DNA from: Deltaproteobacteria bacterium
GTDB taxonomy: Bacteria > Desulfobacterota > BSN033 > UBA1163
NCBI GenBank assembly: GCA_037441725.1
Contig: JBBIRT010000002.1
Coordinates: 2,111 to 55,560, forward strand
Length of the DNA stretch: 53,450 nucleotides
Direction of reading: 5' to 3'
This document shows positions 1,652-29,146 of the stretch, piece after piece; position 1 is the first letter of the stretch, and every line of letters begins with the position of its first letter. Made by a program: the position numbers and the translations under genes. A model generated the notes under the pieces. That model searched no databases and was not told where the DNA came from. It saw nothing but the letters and a program-made list of their open reading frames with translations.

Positions 1652-3085
1652 ATGCCAACCATCTTAATTGTAGATGATGACAAGTCGATTCGATATTCCC
1701 TGAAGCGGATGTTAGAGGGGGACTATTCGATTCTTACGGCTCAGAGTGGAGAGGAGGCATTGGTTCAGTTTAGGGAGGGGGCTCCTGATCTGGTTCTGAT
1801 GGACATCAAGATGCCTGGTCGGGATGGGATGGAGGTGTTGAAGGAGATCAAATCGATAGATCCCAAATCATTGGTCATTCTCATGACGGCCTATGGGACG
1901 ACCGAGACAGCCATTGAGGCCATGAAGTATGGGGCTTTTGACTATATCCTCAAGCCTTTTCCTATTCCTCAGATGAGGCGGTTAGTAGAGAGGGCTTTGA
2001 CGTTGAGGAGATTGATGAAGGGGGGAGTCACTTATGCTCCATTGGCCGATGGGGAGGGAGAGGAGGAGCGAATTGTGGGCTCTTCCTCCAAGATGCAGGA
2101 GATCTATAAGATGATTGGTCAGATTGCTCCCAGTGAGGTGACGGTTTTGCTTCGGGGAGAGAGTGGGACGGGAAAGGAGTTAATGGCTCGGGCGATCTAT
2201 CATCACAGTCTTCGTTCGAACCAGCCCTTTTTGCCGGTCAACTGTGCGGCCATTCCGGATACGCTTCTTGAGAGTGAGCTGTTTGGACATGAGAAGGGAG
2301 CCTTTACCGGGGCCGTTTCTCGTCGGATTGGGAAACTGGAGCAGTGTCAGGGGGGGACGATCTTTTTGGATGAGATTGGAGACATGTCCCTTTCCACTCA
2401 GGCCAAGCTATTGAGGGTACTTCAGGAGAAGACCTTTGAGCGGTTGGGGGGGATGGAGACGATCAAGGTGGATATTCGTTTTATCGTGGCCACCAACAAG
2501 GATCTGGAGGAGGCCATTTTGAAGGGGAGATTTCGAGAGGATCTCTATTATCGGCTCAATGTGGTCTCCTTGATGATTCCTCCTTTACGGGAGAGGAGGG
2601 AGGATATTCCTCAGTTGGTCACTTATTTTTTGAAGAGGTTTAATCGGGAATTGAGGAAGGGGGTGGTGGGGGTCACCCCTTCAGCGATGGACAAGATGAT
2701 GGCTTATGGGTGGCCGGGGAATGTGCGGCAGTTGGAGAACGTATTGAAGAGGGCGATGGTATTATGTCAGGGGGAATGGATTTTGGAGGATCAACTGTTT
2801 CTTGAGGGGGGACGAGAGAAGGAGGAGGTAGAAAGTGAGTTGAGTAAGAAAACGATTGAGGATCTTCTGGATATGCTTTTTGGTGAGCTCTCCAAGGTCC
2901 AGACTTCTCAGGATCTGGATATGATCTCCATTCTGGAACGAGGACTCATTCTCCGTGCCCTTCAAAAAACCAAAGGAAACCAACTCAAGGCTGCCTCTCT
3001 CCTTGGAATCCATCGGAGTACCCTTCGGGGCAAAATGGAAAAATATAATATTAAGAAAGAGGTATTGGTTTCAGAAGAAGAATAA
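1652..3085 (+). CDS. Sigma-54-dependent response regulator (NtrC family: REC + AAA+ + Fis-type HTH)
   Basis: Receiver Asp context (LVLMDIKMPG), Walker A GESGTGKE, sigma-54 contact motif GHEKGAFTGA, C-terminal HTH (AASLLGIHRSTLRGKM). ATG preceded by AAGGAAATGG. Confidence 0.93.
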   Translation: MPTILIVDDDKSIRYSLKRMLEGDYSILTAQSGEEALVQFREGAPDLVLMDIKMPGRDGMEVLKEIKSIDPKSLVILMTAYGTTETAIEAMKYGAFDYILKPFPIPQMRRLVERALTLRRLMKGGVTYAPLADGEGEEERIVGSSSKMQEIYKMIGQIAPSEVTVLLRGESGTGKELMARAIYHHSLRSNQPFLPVNCAAIPDTLLESELFGHEKGAFTGAVSRRIGKLEQCQGGTIFLDEIGDMSLSTQAKLLRVLQEKTFERLGGMETIKVDIRFIVATNKDLEEAILKGRFREDLYYRLNVVSLMIPPLRERREDIPQLVTYFLKRFNRELRKGVVGVTPSAMDKMMAYGWPGNVRQLENVLKRAMVLCQGEWILEDQLFLEGGREKEEVESELSKKTIEDLLDMLFGELSKVQTSQDLDMISILERGLILRALQKTKGNQLKAASLLGIHRSTLRGKMEKYNIKKEVLVSEEE

Positions 3086-7906: not shown

Positions 7907-9538
7907 TTGGAAGGAATTTATCAGTTGAAAAGAGATGCCCTTAATACCCACCTTCACCAAAGGAGAGGCCCCTCTCCTCCTTCCTCCCAAGAAAAATTGC
8001 TCTTCACATTAGAGAGAAAGCTTAAGGAGCTGACCGTTCTTTATAAAATTAGTCAGCGATTAGGATCTGGACAAAACTGTGAGGAAGTCCTTCCCGAAAT
8101 TCTAAGGATCTTCCATTCACACTTGGGGATGAATCGGGGGACTATCGCTCTATTAGATTCCTTAACGGGCCAGATAGAGGTTCGTGCGGCTCATGGAATG
8201 ACTGAAGAGGAGGTAAAAAGGGGAAGATATTTAGTCGGGGAGGGAATTACCGGAAAAGTGGTGGAATCGGGCAAACCCATGTTCGTTCCACAAATCGAGA
8301 AAGAGCCTCTATTTTTAAATCGAACACGGTGCAGAGATCATATTAAGAAAAGTAACATCTCTTTCATCTGTGTCCCTATCAAAAATGGCCAGAATATTTT
8401 AGGGGCTTTGAGTGTGGATCGACTTTTCAGTGAGGAAATTGCCTTTGAAGAAGATGTCAGACTCCTTTCCATCGTTGCGTCCATGATTGCCCAAGGGCTC
8501 AAGATTCATCAGATGATTCAGGAGGAAAAAGAGGAACTCTTGAATGAAAATCTCCTTCTGAAAGAGAAATTGAGAGAACGATACAATCCCTATAATATTT
8601 TAGGGAAAAGCAATAAAATGAATGAAGTCTTTCAGATGATTGAACAGATTTCAAATACGGATGTAACCGTCCTCATCCGAGGAGAAAGTGGTACCGGTAA
8701 AGAATTGGTAGCCAATGCTATCCATTTTAATAGCCTGCGATCCCTCCAGCCTTTCATAAAGATCAATTGTGCAGCCCTTCCTGAAAACCTTATTGAAAGC
8801 GAATTATTTGGTCATGAGAAGGCAGCCTTCACCGGAGCAACGGAACAAAGAATAGGAAGATTCGAAAGGGCAAACAGAGGTACACTCTTCCTGGATGAAA
8901 TTGGTACTTTGGATCTTAATGCCCAGGCAAAACTGTTAAGGGTTCTGCAAGAGAAAGAATTTGAAAGAATTGGTGGAAGTCGAACGATCCGTGTGGATGT
9001 CCGCATCATTGCGGCTACCAGTAGGAATTTGGAAAAGTCAATGAAAGAGGGAACTTTCAGGGAGGACCTTTATTACCGTCTAAATGTCTTTCCGATTTTT
9101 ATTTCCCCCTTAAGAGAAAGGAAAACGGATATCCTTCTTCTAACTGACCATTTTGTTGAAAAATTCAATCGGAAACATAAAAAGCACGTTCGAAGGATTT
9201 CAACTCCAGCCATAGACATGCTCATGCAGTATCATTGGCCGGGCAATGTGAGAGAACTTGAAAATGTCATCGAGCGGGCTGTCCTCCTCTGCACGGATCG
9301 AGTCATCCACAGCTATCATCTTCCACCTACCCTTCAGACCGGAGAACGATCCGGCACAGTCCCCTCACTCTCTTTCGAAGAGGCAAGGAAAAATTTAGAA
9401 AAGGAGTTGATCATCGATGCTCTTAAAAACTCTCGAGGAAAGATGGCCGAGGCTGCAAGGCTCTTGAGAACCACGGAAAGGGTCGTTTCTTACAGTGTCC
9501 GGAAACTCGGGATTAACCCAAAGTCTTATCGTTCTTAA
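7907..9538 (+). CDS. Sigma-54-dependent transcriptional activator, NifA-like (GAF + AAA+ + HTH)
   Basis: N-terminal GAF ([14 protein letters not shown]), Walker [20 protein letters not shown]-terminal HTH ([23 protein letters not shown]). No receiver domain. The start (TTG 7907) is uncertain. Confidence 0.9.
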
Positions 9539-18233: not shown

Positions 18234-18572
18234 TTATCTTAGATATTCTTCAAATAACTCTTTGATCAGTATCTCGTTCTTGTTCTGAACTTTCTGCATC
18301 TCAGCCAATTCGACATTCTCATAAGGCTGTTTCATTCGCTTGTTTCTCAGTCTTGTCATCTCCTCTTCCAGATATTTTAAGGTATCGGAAATGGCCTCTG
18401 ACATCGAAGAGATTGAACCTTTAGCTTTCTTAAAAGTCTCTTTATCTAAATAGGATCGATTGATTAAATGAAAACGCTCAAAAAATTTTTGAAACTTTTC
18501 TATCTCCTTCTGACTCACTTCCTCTTTTAAGATAATCTGTTTCAATCCATCTAATATTTTATTCAATTCCAT
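18234..18572 (-). CDS. Hypothetical alpha-helical/coiled-coil protein
   Basis: ORF with a good RBS (GAGGGAG) before the internal ATG (MELNKILDG). Charged heptad-like composition. No family recognised. Confidence 0.5.
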   Translation of the reverse strand: MELNKILDGLKQIILKEEVSQKEIEKFQKFFERFHLINRSYLDKETFKKAKGSISSMSEAISDTLKYLEEEMTRLRNKRMKQPYENVELAEMQKVQNKNEILIKELFEEYLR

Positions 18573-18785
18573 AAATCTCCCTCTCGTAACAACCCTATTC
18601 ATTATTATTTATCATAAAGACATCTCTCCACTTCTCTGCCCTTTTTTATACACCTTGACGGAAATTCATCATCTATTTTAACCGATTCAATCAATCTAAA
18701 TCCAAGTCTAATTCGACGCAAATAAAATATCAATCAATTTCAATCAGTTATCAAATTAAAAGATTTATGATCCAATTTTCTCATG

Positions 18786-18801
18786 TGGTATGTCATTTGC
18801 T
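18786..18801 (+). promoter_or_regulatory. Sigma-54 (-24/-12) promoter TGGTATGTCATTTGCT
   Basis: GG/GC at the canonical register. Predicted +1 is about 18812, 112 nt upstream of the glnA ATG. Confidence 0.7.
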
Positions 18802-18840
18802 TAATATCATTCATTATACAAAGAAGTATTTAAAGAGGAC

Positions 18841-18881
18841 AAAGGCGTCCCTTTCTTCTTTATAAGGGACGCCTTTTGTTT
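18841..18881 (+). terminator. Intrinsic-terminator-like hairpin inside the glnA leader
   Basis: Perfect 11-bp stem AAAGGCGTCCC / GGGACGCCTTT (GC-rich core), 14-nt loop, followed by TTTTGTTT. Orientation-specific for the + strand. Confidence 0.6.
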
Positions 18882-18923
18882 GGAAAAGAAGAATACTTTT
18901 AAAAAAGGCAAAAGGAGGAAGAG

Positions 18924-20246
18924 ATGGAGAAAGAGACTGTGTTGAAAATGGCAAGGGAAAATAACGTTAAATTTATTCGGCTCTGGTTCACTGACATCCT
19001 GGGGTTTTTAAAAGGGTTTGCAATCACCATTGACGAATTGGAAGGAGCCCTCGAAGAGGGGATGGGATTTGATGGCTCATCCATCCAGGGTTATGCCCGG
19101 ATAGATGAGAGCGACATGATTGCCAAACCCGATCCTAAGACCTTTCAGATCATCCCCTGGAGGCCAAAAGAAAACGCCGTCGCCAGGATGTTTGCAGACA
19201 TCTATGAACCGGATGGAACTCCTTATAAGGGTGATCCCCGATGGGTATTAAAAAGGGCCTTAAATAAGGCCCGAGATCTGGGATATACCTTCTATGTTGG
19301 TCCTGAATTGGAATACTTCTATTTCAAATCAAATGATGGGATTCCTCAAATTCTTGACCGAGGAGGTTATTTTGACCTCACCCCACTTGATGTTGCCACT
19401 GAACTCCGGCGTGAAACCATTTTAACCCTTGAGGCCATGGGGATTCATGTTGAATACAGCCATCATGAAGTGGCTCCCAGCCAACATGAGATTGATCTTA
19501 GATACGAAGAAGCCCTTACCATGGCAGACCACGCCATGACCTATCGTCTCATAGTTAAAGAGATTGCATTACGGCATGGAGTCTATGCGACCTTCATGCC
19601 CAAACCCATCTTTGGACAGAATGGAAGTGGAATGCACACCCATCAATCTCTCTTCAAGGGGGATAAGAATGCCTTTTTCGATCCTAAGGATGAATTTCAT
19701 CTTTCCAAGATAGCCAAATCCTATATTGCGGGTATTTTGAAACATTCAAAGGAGATCACTTCTATTACTTCGCAATGGGTAAATTCCTATAAGAGGCTTG
19801 TGCCGGGTTATGAAGCCCCAGTCTATATCTCCTGGGCAAGAAGAAACCGTTCTGCCCTGGTCCGAGTTCCCATGTATAAACCGGGAAAGGAAAAAGCCAC
19901 TCGGATCGAATTTCGATCACCCGATCCTGCCTGTAATCCATATCTCGCCTTTGCTGTAATGCTTGCAGCAGGATTAAAAGGGATTGAAAAGGGATATGAA
20001 CTTCCTCCACCTGTTGAAGAAGACATCTTTGAGATGTCAGAGGAGGCACGAAAGAGACACGGAATCGAATCCCTTCCCGGAAACCTTCTTGAAGCAATCC
20101 AACTTACAGAAAAAAGTGACTTAGTGCGGGAAACCCTGGGAGATCATATTTTCCAAAAATTTATTGAAAATAAAAAGATGGAATGGGATCAGTACAGGAC
20201 CCATGTCTCTCAATTTGAACTGGAGAAATATCTACCCATTTTATAG
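18924..20246 (+). CDS. glnA: Glutamine synthetase, type I (short, GSI-alpha-like)
   Basis: 440 aa. Motifs FTDILG, GFDGSSI, GPELEYF, SHHEVAPSQHEID, NGSGMHTHQS, RVP...ATRIEFRSPD. RBS AAAGGAGG. Confidence 0.95.
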   Translation: MEKETVLKMARENNVKFIRLWFTDILGFLKGFAITIDELEGALEEGMGFDGSSIQGYARIDESDMIAKPDPKTFQIIPWRPKENAVARMFADIYEPDGTPYKGDPRWVLKRALNKARDLGYTFYVGPELEYFYFKSNDGIPQILDRGGYFDLTPLDVATELRRETILTLEAMGIHVEYSHHEVAPSQHEIDLRYEEALTMADHAMTYRLIVKEIALRHGVYATFMPKPIFGQNGSGMHTHQSLFKGDKNAFFDPKDEFHLSKIAKSYIAGILKHSKEITSITSQWVNSYKRLVPGYEAPVYISWARRNRSALVRVPMYKPGKEKATRIEFRSPDPACNPYLAFAVMLAAGLKGIEKGYELPPPVEEDIFEMSEEARKRHGIESLPGNLLEAIQLTEKSDLVRETLGDHIFQKFIENKKMEWDQYRTHVSQFELEKYLPIL

Positions 20247-20279
20247 GGGGTGAAAGAAAAAGTTTAGGGGTTGATAAGA

Positions 20280-23200
20280 ATGAACCAAAATAGAAATCAT
20301 TTAACCTGGAAAAAATATCTTGAAGATTTTCTACAGCATCATTCTGACTTAAAGGTAATCGAAGATCCTGAGAAACTTGAGTACTATCGTTCTGATCTTA
20401 ATGTGGATCTCCCTCCTCTGATTCGTGATTTAATGTTAAAAAGCCTTCCGGATCTGGTTCTTCAACCCTCCACAGAAGAACACATATTAAAGATCTTTGA
20501 TTTAGCGCGTAAGCATAAAATCCCATTAACGATTCGAGGGGCTGGCACCTGGGGATATGGAGGAGCAGTCCCAACCCAGGGAGGAATTCTGATTGACCTC
20601 AACTTAATGGATAAGATTGAAGTCAATCCCGAAACCCTGGAGCTGACGGTTGGGCCAGGGGCGCGTTTTCATGACATCCACCAACAACTCGAACGATATG
20701 GACTCTCCCTTCTCAGCATGACATCTGGTAAAGGTGGAACGTTCATCGGATGGATCGCTACAGGAGGGATGGGATATGGTACCTTCCATTATGGCCCTGT
20801 AGAAAAACAGTTGATCTCCCTTCGGGTAATTTCTCCGGATGGAAGGATTCGAGAAATCAAATCAGAAGATCCAGAAATCAAATACTTTCTTTCAACAGAA
20901 GGCCAGATGGGTATCATCGTTCAAGCAACGTTAAAAATTGGGAAACAACCCTCCCGATGGTTTCCCTTTCTGCTCCCCTTTGAGACACAAGCCTCTGCCT
21001 ACACCTTGACTCAGAAGCTTTCCCATCATCCTTTCATTAAACCCGATGATCTGATGGTTTATCATAACGAATTGGTACGAATGCTCAAGTCACAATCAAA
21101 CGGAAAGATAACCATCCCTGATAAGAATCTCATGTTAGTTGTCTTTTCAAGAGAGGAAAAGGCCCAAGAATTTAAAACTTATCTGCAAGAAAATTCTATT
21201 CAACCTGCTGATGAAGAATTAGCCCACTATCTTTGGAAAGAACGATTCGTTCCAATGTCCATCAAACCGTTTGGACCATCTCTTTTAGCCGTGGAGGTTC
21301 TTCTCCCTATCGATCAGGTGGCCCCCTATTGTGAAAAGATCAGCGAGTGGGGAAAACGATTAGGCGTAAGCCTTTATCCTTCCTCCCATCTCGTGAGCAA
21401 GGATCAGGTCCTTTTCCTGGCCATGATCACCTCAGACCATCGAAAGACTATCTTCTATATTGATTTGATGCTTATTCCCATGATGGTTCGCCTTGCTGTC
21501 CAATTTTATCGAGGAAAACCCTATGGTCTTGGAATATGGAATACACCCTTTTTGCATGATCTCTATTCAAAGGAAGAGCGAAAGGATCTCATCCAATACA
21601 AAAGAAAGGTAGATCCATTAAAGATCCTGAATCCCGGAAAGTTCTTTCATGTTTCCGGAAGATTAGGTCCCCTTCAAAAAATTCTCTTCCATTCAGATCT
21701 TTTCAACCTTGAACTCGCCTCTACCCAATGGCTTCTTCTTAAACTCTTCTCCATTCTTCCGGAGAAAAAATTTCGGAAGCGCATCCCCATCCCACCACAA
21801 GGATTGGAGAAGATCGCTTATGAGGTCTTTTCTTGCGCTCAATGCGGAAATTGTGTAACTCGATGCCCAGTCTATCGGGCAACGAGGGATGAAACCTTTA
21901 CGGCACGGGGAAAACTTCTCACCATGAAGAGGGCCATAGAAACTCAAAAGATCGAACTTTCAAAAGTCCTTCCTCTTTATTTCTGTCTCCATTGTGGACG
22001 TTGTGATGAAGAGTGTCAGGTCAGCATAAACCATCGCCAGCTTTATAAGGATCTCGAGAAATATCTTTCAGATCGTATCGATTTTCCCATCCGGGAAATC
22101 ACTGACTTCGTCCAGGAGGTAGAAAAAAGTCCTGAATTTTATCGTTTTCTGGATGTCATCCGAACAGGCTTCGATCAAAAGATTCGAGAACAGCGGCAAA
22201 CCTTTTCAAAATACCGTGTTCGTATCGATGAGGAATATTGCCTTCATTGCGGGACCTGTGTGGATGCCTGCATGTATAGTGTTCGCAAACGGAATGATGC
22301 CGATCCACGTCAAGTTATCGTGGTGGATGAATCCCTGTGCCGGGGCTGTGGGGCATGTTTAGAACGTTGCCCCCAGATAGCAGCAGGCCTTCCAGCGACA
22401 TCGGTAGAACTCCATCCTGACTATCTCAGTATGGATCATCCCTATTGGAATAGCGAAGTCATATCACGGATCGACCTTGAGGCCACGACAGGAAAGATCC
22501 CCGTCTCTGGAACAGGTCAGGGAGATCCCCACCGGGGCTCGGGCAACGATGGGATTCGTTTTGGTCATTTTCATATCGTCGGGCCAGCCCAGAATCTTCT
22601 CTATGAGAGTTCTGCCGATGCGATTGCCATTCACCTTGGCCAGCGGCCTAAATATCTCAAGTTCAATGGAGTGGAGATCGAAACTCCCCCACCCCGTCTC
22701 GTCCATCTTAAAACCCCTTTAATCCTTGATATCCTTCCAGGCAATCAAAACGATGAATTATTAGATGCCATGCTGGAGGCAGCCTCCACGATGGGAACTC
22801 GTGTTACCCTCCGTTGGGAAGAGGTGAAACGATTTAGCTCAAAGATTGGAAATCGGTTGAATACCCTTATCCTTCGTCTCACCCTTGAAGACCTCAAAAA
22901 TATATTGGAGGGAAAGGAGAAGGTAAACTTGCTTAAGGATTCTCTTTTCGATTTGATTGAAATTGAATGGGAGGATTCCTTTTTGAATCATTTCAATCAA
23001 TTGAGGAGTCTCTTTTCAGAATCTCAAGTTCTCTGTGCTGTTTTAAAAGTGAAAAAAGAGGATGTCTCCCCTGAACTTCAGCTTTCTTCTGAATTTCAAA
23101 AAAGGTTAGAGTTACTTTCCCAATCCCCTTTTGATGTCCTTTGTCTTTCCTCAGATTACGACTCTGATCAAGGGTATTATCCCACGACTGATGCCGTTCC

Positions 23201-26200
23201 AGCCGTTCACCGCTTCCTGGTCTCAAGGAAAATCAGACATCGCTTTTCAATCCTTGCCTCTGGAGGTATCCGTTCTGCTGCAGATTCCCAGAAAACGATC
23301 CAGAGGGGGGCCAATGGAATCAAGATTGACTGGCCTGTCTTATTGGTGGCTGATTTCATGGCCCTAAAAAAATTCAGGCAGGGAGAAGTCATTATTCCCT
23401 TACATGATCGTTCAACCCTTATTAAAAGGTTGATCAATTTAATACGTGTTTGGAATATCCAGATCATCGAGGTCCTCGGAGCTTCTGGCTTTAAGGATAT
23501 TAAAAAAACGGTGGGTGAAGAAAATCGGCTCCTCATTTTCGACGATTTGGAAGAAAGGGTCTATGACATTTTCAAAAGTTCACCCCGACTCCAAAGAAAT
23601 AAACAATATAACCTGAAACGGATTCAAAGAGAAGGAGAATCCATTGGATGGCGATACAGCCAGTTAAAAGGATTGATTCAATCTGCCAAACACCCCCATC
23701 AATTTTATCACTGTCATCTCAATCCTGCTTGTTACCGGATCTTTGACCGAGATCATGTATGGCCTGCCTCTCTCATCGCTTCAGTGGGACGTATGGCCAG
23801 TGGGGATCGAAAGACCTTATTCCTTAACCAAACCGAGGAGCGTGGAAACTTAGGGGATGGTTTTGATTTCATTCATATTCAATTTCAACAAAATCCAGAT
23901 ACCCTCCCCGACGAGCGATTAGAGGAGGTCTCAACAGGTCTTCAAATCTCCCCTCAATTACGATTGAAAAGTCCTTTTATTGGGGCCGGAATGTCTGTAG
24001 GATCCGTTGGCCCCGGAACCTGGCGGGCTCGGGTACTGGCCACCCGGGCTCTGGGCACTCAAATGGATACCGGTGAAGGTGGGTATCCGACCTTTTTTAT
24101 TCTTGACTCAAAATGGAATCCTTTAGATCTCACTGATCAACAGGTCAATTGGCTAAGCCGTTTTATGGAAGAAAGAAAGCTTATCCCTATTGAATCATTG
24201 ATGAAACGACTTTCTCAAGAAGTTGAACCTACCCCTGAATATCAGACCCTTTTAGAAACCCTGAGGAAGTATCCTCCATCGATGACTGTTCAATATGTTC
24301 CTATTGTCACCCCTGAAGATGAACCTTTTGTCTCTACCCAATTAAAAACAGGACTCTTTGGAGTGACCAAAGAAACCATCCGTAGGGCTCGTCGGGTGGT
24401 GATTGCTTACAGCCAGGGAGCCAAACAGGGGGTAGGAGGACATTTATTGGGGAGGAAGGTCTTTGGCTTGGTCTCTCGGCTAAGGGGTGTGGCAGAAGGA
24501 GTAAGTCTTATCTCTCCATTTCCATTCCACAATTGTTATTCCATTGAAGATGTGAAGGCATTCATCGATGCCGTTCGTATGATCAACCTTAAAGCCACCA
24601 TCTGCATCAAGGTTTCACCCTCCCCTGACATTGAGTTCATTGTCTCAGGCCTTGCTCGTATTGCTAAAGACAATGACATGGTGATCGAGGTCTGGTTGGA
24701 TGGACCGCGTGGGGGGACAGGTGCAGCTCCTGACATCATCAAAGGTCAAATGGGAATGCATATGGAATATGCCATTCCCATCTGCCATGAAAAGTTGCTG
24801 GATGATGGATTAAGGGACTACGTCGTTTTTATGGGAAGTGGTGGGTTTCGAACCTGGGGAGATGTCATCAAGGGAATTGCCCTCGGATTGGATGGAGTCA
24901 TTCTTGGAACAGCCGATCTGGTGGCTATCGGTTGCGTGAGGGACCGAAACTGCGAGTCAGGGTGTCGAAGTGGCATTTCCACCATTGAACCTAAAATGCA
25001 ACTACTCAGAAATGTTGAACTGAATACCCAGCAGATCATTAACTTCCGTGCCCTTTTACAAGCCCAGACGATCCGAGCCCTCGCAGCCCTCGGGATGAAG
25101 GATATTCGAGAACTTCGTGGACGCTACGACTGTATCCAATGGTCTCTCCTCGAAGAGAGGGTTGAAAAGCGTCGTCGTCAGAGGAAGGAGCCATCCTGGG
25201 TTGAACCTGTCCCCAGCCTATCCTTGGAGCCTGCTCCTCCTTCAGATTGCGGGGTGGCGGCCATCGTATCCAATCATTTCATTCCAAGTCATGTCATGGA
25301 CCTGATGTTAGATCGAATGGCTAATCGGGGGATGGATGGGGTAGGAATCTGGAAAGGAGGATGTTACCCTAACCATTTAGAGGATTATGCCATCCATGTA
25401 TTGATTAAAGGCCCCCTCCAGACTCAGATTGAAGAAGAATATCAAAGTAGAGAACCTGATATCGATCCAGAAGAGATTCGACGTCAGGCAAGAAAAACGA
25501 TCCTGGACAGACGCCAACGAATCATGCGGGAGATTCTCAAGCAATATTTCAAAGGCCTTGATTTAAAAGATTTTGACGGCGATCTGGAAAAGAATCGAAT
25601 CCCCTATCGTCGAGATCAAGAAGGATCGGAGCAAGATTACCGAAGCTTTGGAGATAAAGATCCAGGGGATGTGTTTCGATTCTTTGTCCGGGTCAATCAG
25701 GATGAACTGAGTCGCTTCATTGAAAATGAGTTAATAAAAGATTCAATTTGGCCTCCCTGGCAGTTGCGTTATCAAGGTCTGAATCTCCAGAATTATAAAG
25801 AGAATAGAGAATTTCTCCAAGAGGCGGAGGATGAGTATATCTATCGGTTGGCTCGTCGGATCACCTTTGAAAACTATGTAAAGGACCAACAGAAAAAAGC
25901 GGCGGTTCTTTCTTGTGGAAAGAATTCGGGTTGCTGGAAAAGCGATGGCCGCCACCTTCCATGGGAGCTGCCTGATGCCCCTGTCAATATTATCCACCGA
26001 AGGTTGGCTACAGGTTCTGTAGTAGATCAAATGAACGCCCATCCCTTCTCAGAACTTCATACCGCTTTAACCCATAATGGAGAAACCACCAATTATCGGA
26101 CCATGCTCAATCGTGTGTCTCAATTCAACCTAACCCCATTAGCTCAAACCGACACGGCTGTTGCATCTCTCAAACTTCATCTACTCAGCCAGTACCTCCA

Positions 26201-27848
26201 CTATCCTTTTGATGCATTGGTTGAATCCTTTTCTCCCACCACTGGATGGAGCTTGACTCAGCTTCCCTCAGAAATGAGGGAGCGTTTTGAACGTATCCAG
26301 GAGGTAGAATTGGAAAGCGCCCCTGATGGGCCCTATCAATATCTCTGTGGACGTATCGATCCCTATCAAAGAGTAATTGAGCGTCTCGATATTATCGATC
26401 CTTCCTTGCTCAGGCCTAATGTGGCAATGCTCTATGATGATGGGGAAAATTTTGTAAGCATTATCTGCTCTGAGAAACAGGGGAGTGATGCAGGAATGCA
26501 GGAATTATTTCGATTGGGATTGATGAAGAGCACCATCTCCCCACTCATCTTTACCGTTAATCCCGGGATGCTAAGCAGGGTCTTCTATGATGAAAAAGGG
26601 AGGATTACAGGATATGAGGTGTTGGATAAATTCGGTAAGAAAATTGAGATCCCTCATGGAACCTTTCCTCCACAGAAGTCCCTCCCACTTGTGGAGGCTT
26701 CTGAGAGGATTGAATTTGAACCCAGTCCATCCCTCTTTATTAAAGATCGGCTGCCTCGCTGGAGTTTTCTGGAGTTTGAAAAGGCCTTAAAAGAATTATC
26801 GAGTAAGCTTCCTCCATCAAAGGCCATTGAGGAATTGACCTGGATTCATGATCATCTCATTGGCTGGGATACTGGAGACAAAGATAGAGGCGCTCTCATT
26901 CATACCGTAAAAAATGTGATCAACACTTTCTTAGATCATATAAGCCATAAAAAGGAATTTTTCAGGGTGACGATTGGAAAGGCAACCGAATTAAACCCCC
27001 CAGAAGACGGGGAACAGGTGTTAGTGGTCGATGCTCGTGGTTTTCGACCTGAGGGGATAGATCCCTTTAGGGTGCTAAGTCCTTTTCTCGATCATGCCCA
27101 TAAGATGGGTTGGAGGAAATTCATTGTCTACCGGGTAGAGGGTCAGCGAGGGATTGGTATGGGGATCGGTTCTGGCCAGACGAACGACACTCAGATCGAT
27201 GTTTACGGAAGCCCAGGTGAATATTGTGGTGCCTTCAATATGGGAGCCTTGGTACGGGTCCACACCCATTCACAGAACTTCACAGGGATGGTGATGCATT
27301 CAGGAACGTTAGAAATCCACGGAGATGTCGGCAAGGTCACTGGATACTCGGCCAAAGGAGGAACATTCAACATCCTCGGAAATGTTGTTGATCGTGGATG
27401 GGTCTGCGCGGTCAGTGATCCGAGAGGGCCTGGACTGGAGGTCAATATTGTGGGGACCGCTTATGAGCACCTCTGTCAGGCCTTCATGGGAGGTTCAGTA
27501 ATCATGCTGGGACTTTTTTGGGGACCGGATGGAATGCTCCATCGAATGCAGTCTCCCTATAAAGGTGGGAAAATCCTGGCCGGGGCCTCTGCAGGTGAGG
27601 TCATCTTCTATGATCCTGAGAAGAGATTAAACCAAGAGCAATATAAAAGTTGTGTTTCCAATCCCATGAATGGGAAAAAGTGGGGGGAAATTATGAACCG
27701 TCTGATGAATCTTGAAAAGATCTTTAGCCTCGGTTTTTCCAGAAAGAACGACCATCTCACGGTTAGAATGGATGGGGATTTTCAGAATCTCACCCCGGAC
27801 AAATTTCTATGGTTATTACCAAAAGGAGAATTGGAAGGGTACCATTAA
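20280..27848 (+). CDS. Giant multidomain glutamate-synthase-like fusion: FAD-linked oxidase + Fe-S modules + two GltS-type barrels + class II amidotransferase + GXGXG domain
   Basis: Single uninterrupted ORF (ATG 20280, or TTG 20271). Motifs in order: FAD PCMH-type (RGAGTWGYGG), CAQCGNCVTRCP/CLHCGRCDEEC, CLHCGTCVDAC/CRGCGACLERCP, a degenerate barrel (ASGGIRSAADS), then an FMN barrel (GAGMSVGSVG...DTGEGG, QGAKQGVGGHL, DGPRGGTGAAP, GSGGFRTWGDV, GCVRDRNCESGC). These are followed by GATase II (CGVAAIV, RGMDGVGIW, NAHPF, HNGETTNY) and a GXGXG region (GQRGIGMGIGSG ... GSPGEYCGAFNMG ... GDVGKVTGYSAKGG). Confidence 0.85.
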   Translation: MNQNRNHLTWKKYLEDFLQHHSDLKVIEDPEKLEYYRSDLNVDLPPLIRDLMLKSLPDLVLQPSTEEHILKIFDLARKHKIPLTIRGAGTWGYGGAVPTQGGILIDLNLMDKIEVNPETLELTVGPGARFHDIHQQLERYGLSLLSMTSGKGGTFIGWIATGGMGYGTFHYGPVEKQLISLRVISPDGRIREIKSEDPEIKYFLSTEGQMGIIVQATLKIGKQPSRWFPFLLPFETQASAYTLTQKLSHHPFIKPDDLMVYHNELVRMLKSQSNGKITIPDKNLMLVVFSREEKAQEFKTYLQENSIQPADEELAHYLWKERFVPMSIKPFGPSLLAVEVLLPIDQVAPYCEKISEWGKRLGVSLYPSSHLVSKDQVLFLAMITSDHRKTIFYIDLMLIPMMVRLAVQFYRGKPYGLGIWNTPFLHDLYSKEERKDLIQYKRKVDPLKILNPGKFFHVSGRLGPLQKILFHSDLFNLELASTQWLLLKLFSILPEKKFRKRIPIPPQGLEKIAYEVFSCAQCGNCVTRCPVYRATRDETFTARGKLLTMKRAIETQKIELSKVLPLYFCLHCGRCDEECQVSINHRQLYKDLEKYLSDRIDFPIREITDFVQEVEKSPEFYRFLDVIRTGFDQKIREQRQTFSKYRVRIDEEYCLHCGTCVDACMYSVRKRNDADPRQVIVVDESLCRGCGACLERCPQIAAGLPATSVELHPDYLSMDHPYWNSEVISRIDLEATTGKIPVSGTGQGDPHRGSGNDGIRFGHFHIVGPAQNLLYESSADAIAIHLGQRPKYLKFNGVEIETPPPRLVHLKTPLILDILPGNQNDELLDAMLEAASTMGTRVTLRWEEVKRFSSKIGNRLNTLILRLTLEDLKNILEGKEKVNLLKDSLFDLIEIEWEDSFLNHFNQLRSLFSESQVLCAVLKVKKEDVSPELQLSSEFQKRLELLSQSPFDVLCLSSDYDSDQGYYPTTDAVPAVHRFLVSRKIRHRFSILASGGIRSAADSQKTIQRGANGIKIDWPVLLVADFMALKKFRQGEVIIPLHDRSTLIKRLINLIRVWNIQIIEVLGASGFKDIKKTVGEENRLLIFDDLEERVYDIFKSSPRLQRNKQYNLKRIQREGESIGWRYSQLKGLIQSAKHPHQFYHCHLNPACYRIFDRDHVWPASLIASVGRMASGDRKTLFLNQTEERGNLGDGFDFIHIQFQQNPDTLPDERLEEVSTGLQISPQLRLKSPFIGAGMSVGSVGPGTWRARVLATRALGTQMDTGEGGYPTFFILDSKWNPLDLTDQQVNWLSRFMEERKLIPIESLMKRLSQEVEPTPEYQTLLETLRKYPPSMTVQYVPIVTPEDEPFVSTQLKTGLFGVTKETIRRARRVVIAYSQGAKQGVGGHLLGRKVFGLVSRLRGVAEGVSLISPFPFHNCYSIEDVKAFIDAVRMINLKATICIKVSPSPDIEFIVSGLARIAKDNDMVIEVWLDGPRGGTGAAPDIIKGQMGMHMEYAIPICHEKLLDDGLRDYVVFMGSGGFRTWGDVIKGIALGLDGVILGTADLVAIGCVRDRNCESGCRSGISTIEPKMQLLRNVELNTQQIINFRALLQAQTIRALAALGMKDIRELRGRYDCIQWSLLEERVEKRRRQRKEPSWVEPVPSLSLEPAPPSDCGVAAIVSNHFIPSHVMDLMLDRMANRGMDGVGIWKGGCYPNHLEDYAIHVLIKGPLQTQIEEEYQSREPDIDPEEIRRQARKTILDRRQRIMREILKQYFKGLDLKDFDGDLEKNRIPYRRDQEGSEQDYRSFGDKDPGDVFRFFVRVNQDELSRFIENELIKDSIWPPWQLRYQGLNLQNYKENREFLQEAEDEYIYRLARRITFENYVKDQQKKAAVLSCGKNSGCWKSDGRHLPWELPDAPVNIIHRRLATGSVVDQMNAHPFSELHTALTHNGETTNYRTMLNRVSQFNLTPLAQTDTAVASLKLHLLSQYLHYPFDALVESFSPTTGWSLTQLPSEMRERFERIQEVELESAPDGPYQYLCGRIDPYQRVIERLDIIDPSLLRPNVAMLYDDGENFVSIICSEKQGSDAGMQELFRLGLMKSTISPLIFTVNPGMLSRVFYDEKGRITGYEVLDKFGKKIEIPHGTFPPQKSLPLVEASERIEFEPSPSLFIKDRLPRWSFLEFEKALKELSSKLPPSKAIEELTWIHDHLIGWDTGDKDRGALIHTVKNVINTFLDHISHKKEFFRVTIGKATELNPPEDGEQVLVVDARGFRPEGIDPFRVLSPFLDHAHKMGWRKFIVYRVEGQRGIGMGIGSGQTNDTQIDVYGSPGEYCGAFNMGALVRVHTHSQNFTGMVMHSGTLEIHGDVGKVTGYSAKGGTFNILGNVVDRGWVCAVSDPRGPGLEVNIVGTAYEHLCQAFMGGSVIMLGLFWGPDGMLHRMQSPYKGGKILAGASAGEVIFYDPEKRLNQEQYKSCVSNPMNGKKWGEIMNRLMNLEKIFSLGFSRKNDHLTVRMDGDFQNLTPDKFLWLLPKGELEGYH

Positions 27849-28792: not shown

Positions 28793-29017
28793 AGAATTCT
28801 GAAAAAGTCCTTAAATGACTGGGGAGGTAGGGTTTCAAACCCTTCGAATGCGGGCTTTAGAATAGAATTTGCTTGGCATCGTTTATGGGAAAAAAAGTAT
28901 TTTCAGGGTTTTCATTTATAGTGCTGAAAGATTAAAGGTATCCGCTCGAAGGCTTTTCCACCCCACCTCCCCAGTCAAAAAATTCTTTTTGAAAACTTTT
29001 TCAGAAATCTCTTGCTG
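28787..29017. repeat. Long imperfect hairpin module B (~225 bp) bounded by direct TTGCTG
   Basis: Outer arms GAGAATTCTGAAAAAGT / ACTTTTTCAGAAATCTC. Inner arms GACTGGGGAGGT (28817-28) / ACCTCCCCAGTC (28965-76). Interior pairing CCTTCGA..GCGG / CCGC.TCGAAGG. Confidence 0.8.
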
Positions 29018-29022
29018 CTCCC

Positions 29023-29051
29023 TTGACAATTTGAAGTGGACGTGCTAATTT
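29023..29051 (+). promoter_or_regulatory. Sigma-70-type promoter (TTGACA-17-TAATTT with TGn extended -10)
   Basis: Consensus -35 TTGACA at 29023-28, 17-nt spacer ending in TGC, -10 TAATTT at 29046-51. About 95 nt upstream of carA. Confidence 0.55.
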
Positions 29052-29091
29052 TAGATCGAATCATATGATCAAACGAGTAAACCAATTCAGG

Positions 29092-29132
29092 GACCCTCGA
29101 TCCTGTTAAAACGGGATCGGGGGTCTTTTTTT
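29092..29132 (+). terminator. Intrinsic terminator/attenuator in the carA leader
   Basis: 12-bp stem GACCCTCGATCC / GGATCGGGGGTC (one G-U), ~8-nt loop, then seven Ts. Ends 14 nt before the carA GTG, and the RBS GGGGG lies after the T-run. Confidence 0.65.
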
Positions 29133-29146
29133 ATGGGGGCAATCTT

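What the first reader, a model, noticed from the sequence alone, without database searches (positions are those of the whole stretch)
18786..18923. glnA leader contains a strong intrinsic terminator: attenuator or sigma-54-dependent small RNA
From the predicted +1 (~18812) the transcript meets an 11-bp perfect hairpin plus UUUUGUUU at 18841-18881, 43 nt before the glnA ATG. There is no room for a second promoter after it. So either glnA transcription needs regulated read-through (riboswitch or protein antitermination), or a ~70-nt sigma-54-dependent sRNA is made here. A-rich segments AAAGAAG (18819) and AAAGAAGAA (18885) are both complementary to the loop UUCUUCUUU, which allows alternative structures. 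I do not recognise it as the known glutamine riboswitch.
Basis: partly seen in the sequence, partly recalled or inferred. Interest (0 to 1): 0.6.

Follow-up and report, generated by a model that had tools for sequence, protein, structure and literature searches.

The report
ANTAR antitermination switch before glnA
The terminator in front of the glutamine synthetase gene is real and belongs to a known kind of RNA switch: transcription stops there unless an ANTAR-family RNA-binding protein holds two small hairpins open, so this is a well-conserved but ordinary new example of nitrogen control.

Summary
A sigma-54 -24/-12 element (18786-18801) is followed by a 13-bp terminator hairpin plus U-tract (18841-18884), 43 nt before the glnA ATG, with no promoter after it.

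- P1 is ATAC[AAAGAA]GTAT (18816-18829).
- P2 is GGAC[AAAGGC]GTCC (18837-18850).
- Both have six-base loops with A at position 1 and G at position 4, and they lie 7 nt apart.
- The loop and 3' arm of P2 are the 5' arm of the terminator.

This is the defining layout of an ANTAR-protein target (EutV, NasR, NasT/NalA, GnfR).

Promoter, P1, P2 and terminator are conserved before glnA in about 13 related Syntrophaceae-like sequences. P1 covaries across 27 homologous leaders. Covariance models find only this site in the window. The same P2 type sits before nitrate, nitrite, glutamate-synthase and ammonium genes, often beside ANTAR genes.

The likely regulator is a highly conserved GAF-ANTAR protein. 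It lies next to identical leader types in relatives and is present, at matching depth, in the metagenome holding this window.

It is a new member of a known kind.

The parts
18786..18801 (+). sigma-54 -24/-12 promoter TGGTATGTCATTTGCT (GG at 18787-88, GC at 18799-800). The predicted +1 is about 18811-18813.
   Evidence: The equivalent TGGCA(T/C)-N5-T(T/C)GCT is conserved 14-15 nt (20 in one) upstream of P1 in 10/10 related leaders. It aligns to the promoter part of the Rfam P11 and narK models. Promoter activity itself is inferred.
18816..18829 (+). P1 mini-hairpin: ATAC / GTAT stem with hexaloop AAAGAA (A1, G4)
   Evidence: The ATAC-N6-GTAT hairpin is conserved in relatives. Across 27 leaders, 5 of 6 P1 pairs change on both sides and 96% of cells are paired.
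18830..18836 (+). 7-nt linker between P1 and P2
   Evidence: This lies within the 5-12 nt range of the E. faecalis eut leaders (PMC3369931).
18837..18850 (+). P2 mini-hairpin: GGAC / GTCC stem with hexaloop AAAGGC (A1, G4). [quoted passage not shown]
   Evidence: The core GACAAAGGCGTC is identical in 7 related glnA leaders. It matches the GGACAAAGGCGUCC consensus of Rfam P11/NalA and narK RNA.
18841..18884 (+). Intrinsic terminator: 13-bp stem (18841-18853 with 18864-18876), 10-nt loop and U-tract UUUUGUUU. Its 5' arm is the loop and 3' arm of P2.
   Evidence: -21.7 kcal/mol, against -5.7 for P1+P2. All 10 related leaders have terminators of -16 to -27 kcal/mol with the same base and different, compensating upper stems.
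18885..18923 (+). Rest of the leader, with Shine-Dalgarno GGAGG at 18914-18918. No promoter is found here.
   Evidence: In relative L005 only about 26 nt separate the U-tract from the ATG.
18924..20246 (+). glnA (glutamine synthetase type I), the first regulated gene
   Evidence: Pfam Gln-synt_C and Gln-synt_N
20271..27848 (+). Giant 2525-aa glutamate-synthase-like fusion (FAD_binding_4, Fer4, Glu_synthase, GXGXG, GATase). It starts 25 nt after glnA, so it is presumably in the same transcript.
   Evidence: The same glnA-giant gene pair follows the leader in relatives. Co-transcription is inferred.
18234..18602 (-). orf122: a conserved small all-helical protein of unknown family, divergently transcribed from the glnA leader (conserved ATG at 18572). 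Whether it belongs to the switch is unknown.
   Evidence: no family. (confident model, no fold match). It is adjacent to the leader in 9/9 and 3/3 relatives.
1652..3085 (+). NtrC-type response regulator (REC - sigma-54 AAA+ - HTH) next to a GAF histidine kinase (3-1589). It is a candidate activator of the glnA sigma-54 promoter.
   Evidence: Pfam. The assignment to this promoter is inferred.
7907..9538 (+). NifA-like GAF - sigma-54 AAA+ - HTH activator, an alternative candidate activator
   Evidence: Pfam. The assignment to this promoter is inferred.

Best explanation
The glnA leader is an ANTAR-type transcription attenuator placed behind a sigma-54 promoter.

Proposed mechanism:
- RNA polymerase with sigma-54 starts at about 18812 when an enhancer-binding protein (NtrC-like or NifA-like, both encoded in the window) is active. 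This step is inferred.
- By default the nascent RNA folds into the strong terminator (18841-18884). Transcription ends there and releases a ~70-nt RNA.
- When an ANTAR-domain protein is active, its dimer binds the two hexaloops of P1 (18816-18829) and P2 (18837-18850).
- P2 uses the 5' arm of the terminator, so the terminator cannot form. Polymerase then reads through into glnA and the giant glutamate-synthase-like gene.

The GS-GOGAT operon therefore needs two keys: initiation (sigma-54 plus activator) and elongation (ANTAR).

The most likely ANTAR protein is the highly conserved 234-aa GAF-ANTAR one-component regulator of this lineage. Its GAF domain resembles those of PtsP (EI-Ntr) and NifA, so it may read glutamine or 2-oxoglutarate. 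I put the regulator's identity at about 0.65. The ligand is speculative.

What is shown: the sequence anatomy, its conservation and covariation, and its linkage to ANTAR genes. What is inferred: promoter use, termination, protein binding and the signal.
For: Anatomy:
- The leader meets every RNA criterion of Ramesh et al. 2012 (PMC3369931): two mini-hairpins, hexaloops AAAGAA and AAAGGC with A1/G4, a 7-nt linker, and a terminator overlapping P2.
- The terminator is -21.7 kcal/mol against -5.7 for P1+P2, so the default state is OFF and a protein is needed. The same holds in relatives.

Comparison with curated families:
- Rfam's best sub-threshold hits are P11 (the NasT-bound NalA leader, PMC11387622) and narK RNA. 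Both align exactly at the sigma-54 promoter and at GGACAAAGGCGUCC plus the terminator.

Conservation:
- Promoter, P1, P2 and terminator are conserved before glnA in L001-L004, L006, L007, L009, L107 and L173.
- They are also present in L206-L208, which were chosen through the neighbouring orf122 and not through the RNA.
- Upper terminator stems differ but stay paired.

P1 as a real partner of P2:
- Of 120 metagenome sites with P2 plus terminator, 47 have an upstream hexaloop hairpin of at least 4 bp with A1/G4. Control windows give 7 and shuffles give 5.6.
- On 27 leaders, 5/6 P1 pairs covary, and 0/500 shuffles reach the observed score.

Covariance models:
- R1 finds only 18814-18850 in the window (37 bits). 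R2, built without the glnA clade, gives 27.6 bits (E 3e-5); the next hit scores 9.2 bits.

Regulon and ANTAR genes:
- Downstream genes of dual-hairpin sites are NrtA-like (11), NirB-type (7), Glu_synthase (7), Amt (2), MFS (2), GS and GDH. This agrees with the published ANTAR nitrogen regulons.
- 35 of the 120 RNA-selected loci carry an ANTAR ORF in their flanks.
- 10/10 of those checked are confirmed by Pfam: 6 GAF-ANTAR, 2 NIT-ANTAR, 1 REC-ANTAR and 1 other.

Links to the GAF-ANTAR family:
- L142 has a GAF-ANTAR gene, 88% identical to P0018, immediately upstream of tandem ATAC-N6-GTAT / GACAAAGGCGTC leaders.
- L204 carries both the gene and such leaders on one contig.
- MAG L.E.D.62 has the glnA leader (L009, GlnA 97% identical to the window's) and a GAF-ANTAR gene (L051).
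- In metagenome X1 the window's contig has depth 27, and the 1265-nt contig encoding GAF-ANTAR P0018 has depth 24.
- The GAF domain scores best against PtsP and NifA models.
Against: - There are no transcript data of any kind. Only DNA metagenome runs hold the sequence.
- No ANTAR gene lies in the 53-kb window.
The link to the GAF-ANTAR protein rests on relatives and on matching depth in a metagenome.
- P1 is only 4 bp (-0.7 kcal/mol).
- Loose dual-hexaloop patterns are common by chance, with about 30 in the window.
- The metagenome pattern was derived from the window's own P2, so P2 conservation in that set is circular, and part of the R2 score is too.
- In related glnA-type leaders the first loop has G rather than A at position 1 in about a third of cases, and it lacks G4 in two.
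- The Rfam hits are far below gathering thresholds (24.1 against 70; 22.7 against 43.2).
Confidence: 0.85

Rival explanations
1. The main product is a free-standing ~70-nt sigma-54-dependent small RNA that acts in trans, for instance by titrating the ANTAR protein as EutX/Rli55 does. On this reading, glnA expression from this promoter is incidental.
For: A terminated ~66-72-nt RNA is the predicted default product. The homologous Pseudomonas leader was first catalogued as sRNA P11 and accumulates in cells (PMC11387622).
Against: There is no other promoter for glnA. In relative L005 only about 26 nt separate the terminator from the ATG. The element always sits directly before glnA or other nitrogen genes, on the same strand. 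Nothing beyond the ANTAR hairpins and the terminator base is conserved in the leader. A trans role could exist in addition to the cis role, but it cannot replace it.
Confidence: 0.06
2. The leader is a riboswitch: the RNA itself binds glutamine, 2-oxoglutarate or another metabolite and switches between terminator and antiterminator.
For: Alternative pairings exist in this sequence. The nascent RNA up to 18863 folds into an extended P2 hairpin of -12.5 kcal/mol.
Against: Only about 29 nt precede the terminator, which is too little for an aptamer. No Rfam riboswitch, the glutamine riboswitch included, matches even at E<=10. The conserved parts are just two 14-nt hairpins. The extended pairing and the loop complementarity are not conserved. 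P1/P2 are not the minimum-energy fold in several relatives, so they need a protein.
Confidence: 0.02
3. The switch is ANTAR-type, but the regulator is not the GAF-ANTAR protein. It would be another ANTAR architecture, such as a GnfR/NasT-like response regulator under an N-responsive kinase.
For: The same P2 type is found beside NIT-ANTAR and REC-ANTAR genes in other lineages. Geobacter uses the REC-ANTAR protein GnfR behind sigma-54 promoters (PMC2995071). The genome could not be searched for further ANTAR genes.
Against: In this lineage the only ANTAR genes seen next to ATAC-N6-GTAT / GACAAAGGCGTC leaders are GAF-ANTAR (L142, L204). The closest MAG and the source metagenome both hold that protein.
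Confidence: 0.25
4. The hairpin is an unregulated or leftover terminator, for example a bidirectional terminator or a constitutive partial attenuator. The two hexaloop hairpins would be there by chance.
For: Loose dual-hexaloop patterns occur about 30 times in the window by chance. P1 is weak.
Against: The upstream gene is divergent, so no gene ends here. The full composite motif is expected 0.15 times per window. It is conserved with the promoter at fixed spacing in about 13 relatives. P1 covaries. The motif is linked to ANTAR genes.
Confidence: 0.03

Closest known systems
NasS/NasT with the NalA leader (Rfam P11, RF00625) of nirBD in Pseudomonas
   Same: Both have an NtrC/sigma-54 promoter followed by two hexaloop hairpins with A1/G4. 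The second hairpin (GGACAAAGGCGUCC) overlaps an intrinsic terminator, and the terminated leader is a ~75-nt RNA. The window aligns to the P11 model at exactly these modules (PMC10783516, PMC11387622).
   Different: The target here is glnA plus a GOGAT-like gene, not nitrate/nitrite reductase. The likely regulator is a one-component GAF-ANTAR protein, not REC-like NasT held by the nitrate sensor NasS. The P11 score (24.1 bits) is far below the gathering score of 70, so this is not a member of that Rfam family.
GnfK/GnfR antitermination of nif, glnK and amtB leaders in Geobacter sulfurreducens (PMC2995071)
   Same: This is also a deltaproteobacterial-type nitrogen regulon. RpoN promoters activated by a master two-component system are followed by leader terminators that an ANTAR protein overrides, giving two-layer control.
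   Different: GnfR is a phosphorylated response regulator, and its site was described as CAGGCAANGGCGCC. glnA was not among the listed targets. No GnfK/GnfR pair was seen here.
EutV/EutW and the eutP, eutG, eutS and eutA leaders of Enterococcus faecalis (PMC3369931, PMC8934654)
   Same: This is the reference system that defines the dual-hexaloop P1-P2 motif, the A1/G4 requirement, the linker length and the P2-terminator overlap. All of these features are present here.
   Different: That system controls ethanolamine genes in Firmicutes from sigma-70 promoters, through a REC-ANTAR regulator.
NasR and the nasF leader of Klebsiella oxytoca
   Same: An NtrC/sigma-54 promoter is combined with an ANTAR antiterminator acting on a hexaloop hairpin before a leader terminator. 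NIT-ANTAR genes were found beside the same P2 type in two metagenome loci.
   Different: NasR senses nitrate through a NIT domain and controls nitrate assimilation, not glnA.

Membership tests
ANTAR-target dual-hexaloop antiterminator RNA (Ramesh et al. 2012) | Two adjacent small stem-loops (P1, P2) upstream of or at the terminator | tested here: met
   P1 is at 18816-18829 and P2 at 18837-18850, each with 4 bp.
ANTAR-target dual-hexaloop antiterminator RNA (Ramesh et al. 2012) | Hexanucleotide loops with A at position 1 and G at position 4 in both hairpins | tested here: met
   The loops are AAAGAA and AAAGGC. In related glnA-type leaders G4 is kept in about 14/16 first loops, and position 1 is A or G.
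ANTAR-target dual-hexaloop antiterminator RNA (Ramesh et al. 2012) | Short linker between the hairpins (5-12 nt in the eut leaders) | tested here: met
   The linker is 7 nt. It is 5-9 nt in most relatives and 15 in L003. L002 and L007 have an extra module.
ANTAR-target dual-hexaloop antiterminator RNA (Ramesh et al. 2012) | Intrinsic terminator whose 5' arm overlaps P2, so the two folds exclude each other | tested here: met
   The terminator 5' arm at 18841-18853 contains the P2 loop and 3' arm. The energies are -21.7 against -5.7 kcal/mol.
ANTAR-target dual-hexaloop antiterminator RNA (Ramesh et al. 2012) | Conservation and covariation of the hairpins in homologous leaders | tested here: met
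   P1 has 5/6 pairs with changes on both sides. P2 is invariant, which is partly due to the search pattern.
ANTAR-target dual-hexaloop antiterminator RNA (Ramesh et al. 2012) | An ANTAR-domain protein (PF03861) encoded by the same genome | tested here: inconclusive
   There is none in the window. Indirect evidence: GAF-ANTAR is present in the closest MAG, on contigs with the same leader type, and in the source metagenome at depth 24 against 27.
ANTAR-target dual-hexaloop antiterminator RNA (Ramesh et al. 2012) | Protein binding to the loops and protein-dependent read-through | not testable with these tools
   This needs EMSA, in vitro transcription or reporters. No RNA runs exist.
Rfam RF00625 (P11 / NalA) | Score at or above the family's gathering threshold (70 bits) | tested here: not met
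   The score is 24.1 bits, E 0.0032. Only the promoter, P2 and terminator modules align.
Rfam RF03032 (narK RNA) | Score at or above the gathering threshold (43.2 bits) | tested here: not met
   The score is 22.7 bits, E 0.046.
Glutamine riboswitch (glnA RNA motif) or any Rfam riboswitch | Match to the covariance model | tested here: not met
   No riboswitch family is among the 17 matches at E<=10 for 18500-19100.
Sigma-54-dependent promoter | GG and GC elements 10 nt apart within TGGCAC-N5-TTGCW, at a fixed place before the transcript | tested here: met
   TGGTATGTCATTTGCT is found in the window. It is conserved in 10/10 relatives, 14-15 nt (20 in one) before P1. Promoter activity was not tested.
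Leader-peptide attenuator | Short ORF with a start codon and RBS in the leader, overlapping the alternative hairpins | tested here: not met
   There is no ATG or GTG between 18812 and 18880 on the + strand.

The most novel reading that the evidence does not exclude
The 234-aa GAF-ANTAR protein of this lineage may be a direct one-component sensor of glutamine and/or 2-oxoglutarate, acting through its PtsP/NifA-like GAF domain. It would gate elongation into a sigma-54-initiated GS-GOGAT operon. Nitrogen status would then be read twice, at initiation and at elongation, by unrelated sensors. The always-adjacent orphan gene orf122 could be a further, unknown component of this control.
Probability: 0.3. 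Interest if true: 0.5.

Novelty: new member of a known kind. Interest (0 to 1): 0.3.

Why it matters
This result turns an unexplained terminator before glnA into a named, testable mechanism. It also adds a deltaproteobacterial-type (Syntrophaceae-like, hot-spring and subsurface) lineage in which the central ammonium-assimilation operon, GS plus a giant GOGAT-like enzyme, needs both a sigma-54 activator and an ANTAR antiterminator.

ANTAR control of nitrogen genes, glutamine synthetase included, has been published since 2010-2012, so the mechanism itself is not new. Three things remain open and useful:
- No GAF-ANTAR protein has been characterised.
- Its ligand is unknown.
- Here it can be paired with a compact, well-defined RNA target for biochemical work.

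The conserved orphan orf122 next to the operon is a separate small lead.

Tried and rejected
- **Riboswitch.** No Rfam match at E<=10, and the leader is too short.
In this sequence it gives an extended P2 hairpin in the nascent RNA. The terminator loops and P1 loops of relatives are unrelated, so it is not a conserved feature.
- **Leader peptide.** The leader has no start codon.
- **Terminator of an upstream gene.** The upstream ORF is divergent.
- **Second promoter after the terminator.** None was found, and in L005 there is no room for one.
- **Further ANTAR targets in the window (amt, glnK, glnD, carAB and others).**
  - The P2 12-mer with up to 2 mismatches gives only a coding-region chance hit.
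  - Models R1 and R2 give nothing else below E 0.38.
  - A weak AT-rich composite hit at 28858-28908 is not supported by the models.
- **ANTAR protein in the window.** None was found.
- **orf122 as a hidden ANTAR protein.** It has no Pfam or NCBIfam hit and no structural match.
- **GAF-ANTAR gene context as evidence.** In L202-L204 it sits near purH/purD, not always near nitrogen genes, so gene context alone is not diagnostic.
- **Weak 57-nt match of the window's own 21.4-kb metagenome contig to the L051 GAF region.** It maps to a non-GAF part of the window and was treated as spurious.
- **RNA evidence.** Only DNA metagenome runs hold the sequence.

Full report
**What is in the sequence**

The window reads TGGTATGTCATTTGCT at 18786-18801, with GG and GC 10 nt apart. 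This is one of only three matches in the window to TGG-N8-TTGCW. All three lie directly upstream of nitrogen genes on the + strand.

From a predicted start near 18812, the transcript reaches a hairpin formed by AAAGGCGTCCCTT (18841-18853) and AAGGGACGCCTTT (18864-18876). A U-rich run follows to 18884, and the glnA ATG is at 18924. The hairpin has an energy of -21.7 kcal/mol. The whole leader folds far better than shuffled versions, with z = -4.5.

No sigma-70-like promoter is found between the terminator and the ATG. The upstream ORF (18234-18602) is on the other strand, so this is not the end of another gene.

Two mini-hairpins lie between the start site and the terminator:
- P1 is ATAC[AAAGAA]GTAT, at 18816-18829.
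- P2 is GGAC[AAAGGC]GTCC, at 18837-18850.

Both have six-base loops with A at position 1 and G at position 4, and they are 7 nt apart. The loop and 3' arm of P2 are the first ten bases of the terminator's 5' arm, so P2 and the terminator exclude each other.

This is the layout that Ramesh et al. defined as the recognition element of ANTAR antiterminator proteins (PMC3369931). It has since been confirmed for NasT and NalA (PMC10783516).

P1 plus P2 are worth only -5.7 kcal/mol. The RNA alone will therefore terminate, and a protein is needed to hold P1 and P2.

**Comparison with curated families**

A permissive Rfam scan gives no riboswitch. Its best two informative hits are P11 (RF00625) and narK RNA (RF03032). 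Both are far below their thresholds. Both align precisely at the sigma-54 promoter, at GGACAAAGGCGUCC and at the terminator.

P11 is the NalA leader of Pseudomonas nirBD. It is transcribed from an NtrC-dependent promoter, bound by the ANTAR protein NasT, and accumulates as a small RNA when terminated (PMC11387622). The window's leader is thus not a member of those Rfam families, but it is built from the same modules.

**Relatives**

GlnA relatives were fetched from species-representative genomes. The closest ones are Syntrophaceae / Thermodesulfobacteriota MAGs with 88-97% GlnA identity.

L001-L004, L006, L007 and L009, together with metagenome loci L107 and L173, keep four features in the same order:
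- a TGGCA(T/C)-N5-T(T/C)GCT promoter;
- a P1 of the form ATAC-N6-GTAT, 14-15 nt after the -12 GC (20 nt in L004);
- the identical P2 core GACAAAGGCGTC;
- a terminator of -16 to -27 kcal/mol.

The upper terminator stems differ in sequence but stay paired.

L002 and L007 carry an extra P2-like hairpin module. L008 has a diverged version.

Among the 80 GlnA loci from many phyla, the motif occurs before glnA only in this clade.

Three further long contigs were chosen only through homologues of the neighbouring orf122. All three have the same leader between orf122 and glnA.

In several relatives P1 and P2 are not the minimum-energy fold of the nascent RNA. This argues for a protein-held structure and against a self-sufficient RNA switch.

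**Is P1 real?**

A metagenome scan for P2 plus the terminator base returned 120 non-redundant sites. Of these, 47 have a hexaloop hairpin of at least 4 bp with A1/G4 within 50 nt upstream. Control windows give 7, and shuffles give a mean of 5.6 with a maximum of 10.

An alignment of 27 such leaders shows the shared signature C-AAnGnn-G in both hairpins. Five of six P1 pairs change on both sides, and 95.5% of cells are paired. No shuffle out of 500 and no slid register comes close. The P1 hairpins were selected for pairing, so the weight lies on the variety of pair types, not on the percentage paired.

Covariance model R1 finds a single site in the 53-kb window, at 18814-18850 with 37 bits. Model R2 was built without any glnA-clade sequence. 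It still finds that site alone, at 27.6 bits (E 3e-5), and the next hit scores 9.2 bits.

One caveat applies. The seeds were collected with the window's own P2 sequence, so only the P1 part of the R2 score is independent.

**Regulon and regulators**

The first genes downstream of the dual-hairpin sites are all nitrogen assimilation genes, as published for ANTAR regulons:

| Downstream gene type | Count |
|---|---|
| NrtA-like binding proteins | 11 |
| NirB-type reductases | 7 |
| Glu_synthase proteins | 7 |
| Ammonium transporters | 2 |
| MFS transporters | 2 |
| Glutamine synthetase | 1 |
| Glutamate dehydrogenase | 1 |

35 of the 120 RNA-selected loci carry an ANTAR-like ORF in their short flanks. 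That is 22 of the 42 loci with a detected P1. All ten that were checked are confirmed by Pfam:
- six GAF-ANTAR;
- two NIT-ANTAR (NasR type);
- one REC-ANTAR (NasT type);
- one other.

**Which regulator acts here?**

The window encodes no ANTAR protein. The indirect evidence points to one family, a 234-aa GAF-ANTAR protein that is 85-90% identical across hundreds of metagenome sequences:
- It lies in MAG L.E.D.62, which also holds the closest glnA leader (L009 and L051).
- In L142 it lies immediately upstream of tandem leaders with the same ATAC-N6-GTAT and GACAAAGGCGTC hairpins.
- In L204 it shares a contig with two such leaders before a Glu_synthase gene.
- In hot-spring metagenome X1 the contig that is 99% identical to the window has depth 27, and a 1265-nt contig encoding this protein (P0018) has depth 24. 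The identity of that contig was checked through the loose-end sequences.

The GAF domain scores best against the PtsP (EI-Ntr) and NifA models. Both of those GAF domains are linked to glutamine or 2-oxoglutarate sensing; that link rests on my own knowledge and was not tested here. The ligand is therefore a hypothesis.

**Mechanism proposed**

Initiation at the sigma-54 promoter would depend on the NtrC-like (1652-3085) or NifA-like (7907-9538) activator. Elongation past 18884 would depend on the ANTAR protein. The regulated unit is glnA plus the 2525-aa glutamate-synthase-like fusion, which starts 25 nt after glnA.

The same two-layer logic is established in three systems:
- Pseudomonas: NtrC plus NasT.
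- Klebsiella: NtrC plus NasR.
- Geobacter: GnfL/M plus GnfK/R (PMC2995071).

**Verdict**

This is a real, conserved regulatory element and a new member of a known kind. ANTAR targets before glutamine synthetase genes were already reported in 2012. Earlier notes of this scan describe many GAF-ANTAR/glnA pairs in other phyla. Those notes were read after my own reading was formed, and they agree with it.

What is specific here is the combination of four things:
- a sigma-54 promoter;
- a GS-giant-GOGAT operon;
- a regulator encoded elsewhere in the genome;
- the constant neighbour orf122.

The main gaps are the absence of transcript data and of a whole-genome ANTAR census.

Noticed in passing
window 18234-18602 (- strand): orf122 is a ~112-aa all-helical protein with no Pfam or NCBIfam family and no PDB fold match. 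It has more than 1000 'hypothetical' homologues. It lies divergently next to the leader-glnA-giant GltS operon in every relative examined (9/9 and 3/3), while the gene on its other side varies. Its function is unknown.
   Followed up: partly
L204 16189-16300; L142 2148-2260 (- strand); L002 3369-3486; L007 5050-5166: Relatives carry tandem or triple ANTAR modules. In L204 and L142, two complete P1-P2-terminator units stand in series before a ~520-560-aa Glu_synthase-domain gene, behind a sigma-70-like promoter. In L002 and L007, an extra P2-like hairpin sits inside the glnA leader.
   Followed up: partly
metagenome loci such as L090, L097, L119, L160, L177: Many hits, mostly low-GC and Firmicutes-like, have a TTGACA / TATAAT promoter followed within about 10 nt by GACAAAGGCGTC plus a terminator, with no detectable P1. 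A few of these loci (L160, L177) have ANTAR ORFs in their flanks. This may be a single-hairpin variant or a P1 that my criteria missed.
   Followed up: no
window 18813-18842 (- strand): The reverse complement of the P1-P2 region scores as a sigma-70-like promoter (TTGTCC-18 nt-TATAAT, 10/12) pointing toward orf122. The -10 part is not conserved in relatives, so it is probably accidental.
   Followed up: partly
window 18822-18831 with 18891-18900: In the full-length leader, the minimum-energy fold pairs the 3' half of P1 with a segment downstream of the terminator in a 10-bp helix. The post-terminator region is highly variable in relatives, so this is likely specific to this sequence or accidental.
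   Followed up: partly
window 18835: A related population in metagenome X3 carries G18835A. This is the only difference within the leader among 7 in 800 nt. It turns a G-U into an A-U in the possible extension of P2.
   Followed up: no
window 28858-28908: A weak, AT-rich match to the composite dual-hexaloop-plus-terminator descriptor lies in the spacer before carA. The covariance models do not support it. A separate first-stage note describes a different terminator leader at 29023-29146.
   Followed up: partly
window 20271-27848: A 2525-aa single-chain fusion directly follows glnA and is conserved in relatives. It combines an FAD-binding oxidase domain, Fe-S clusters, the Glu_synthase FMN domain, GXGXG and an amidotransferase-like region. 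This is an unusual GOGAT architecture.
   Followed up: no
L051 5992-7323: The closest MAG has a second glnA paralogue (71% identical). It has a sigma-70-like promoter and no ANTAR leader, and it is divergent from the GAF-ANTAR gene.
   Followed up: partly
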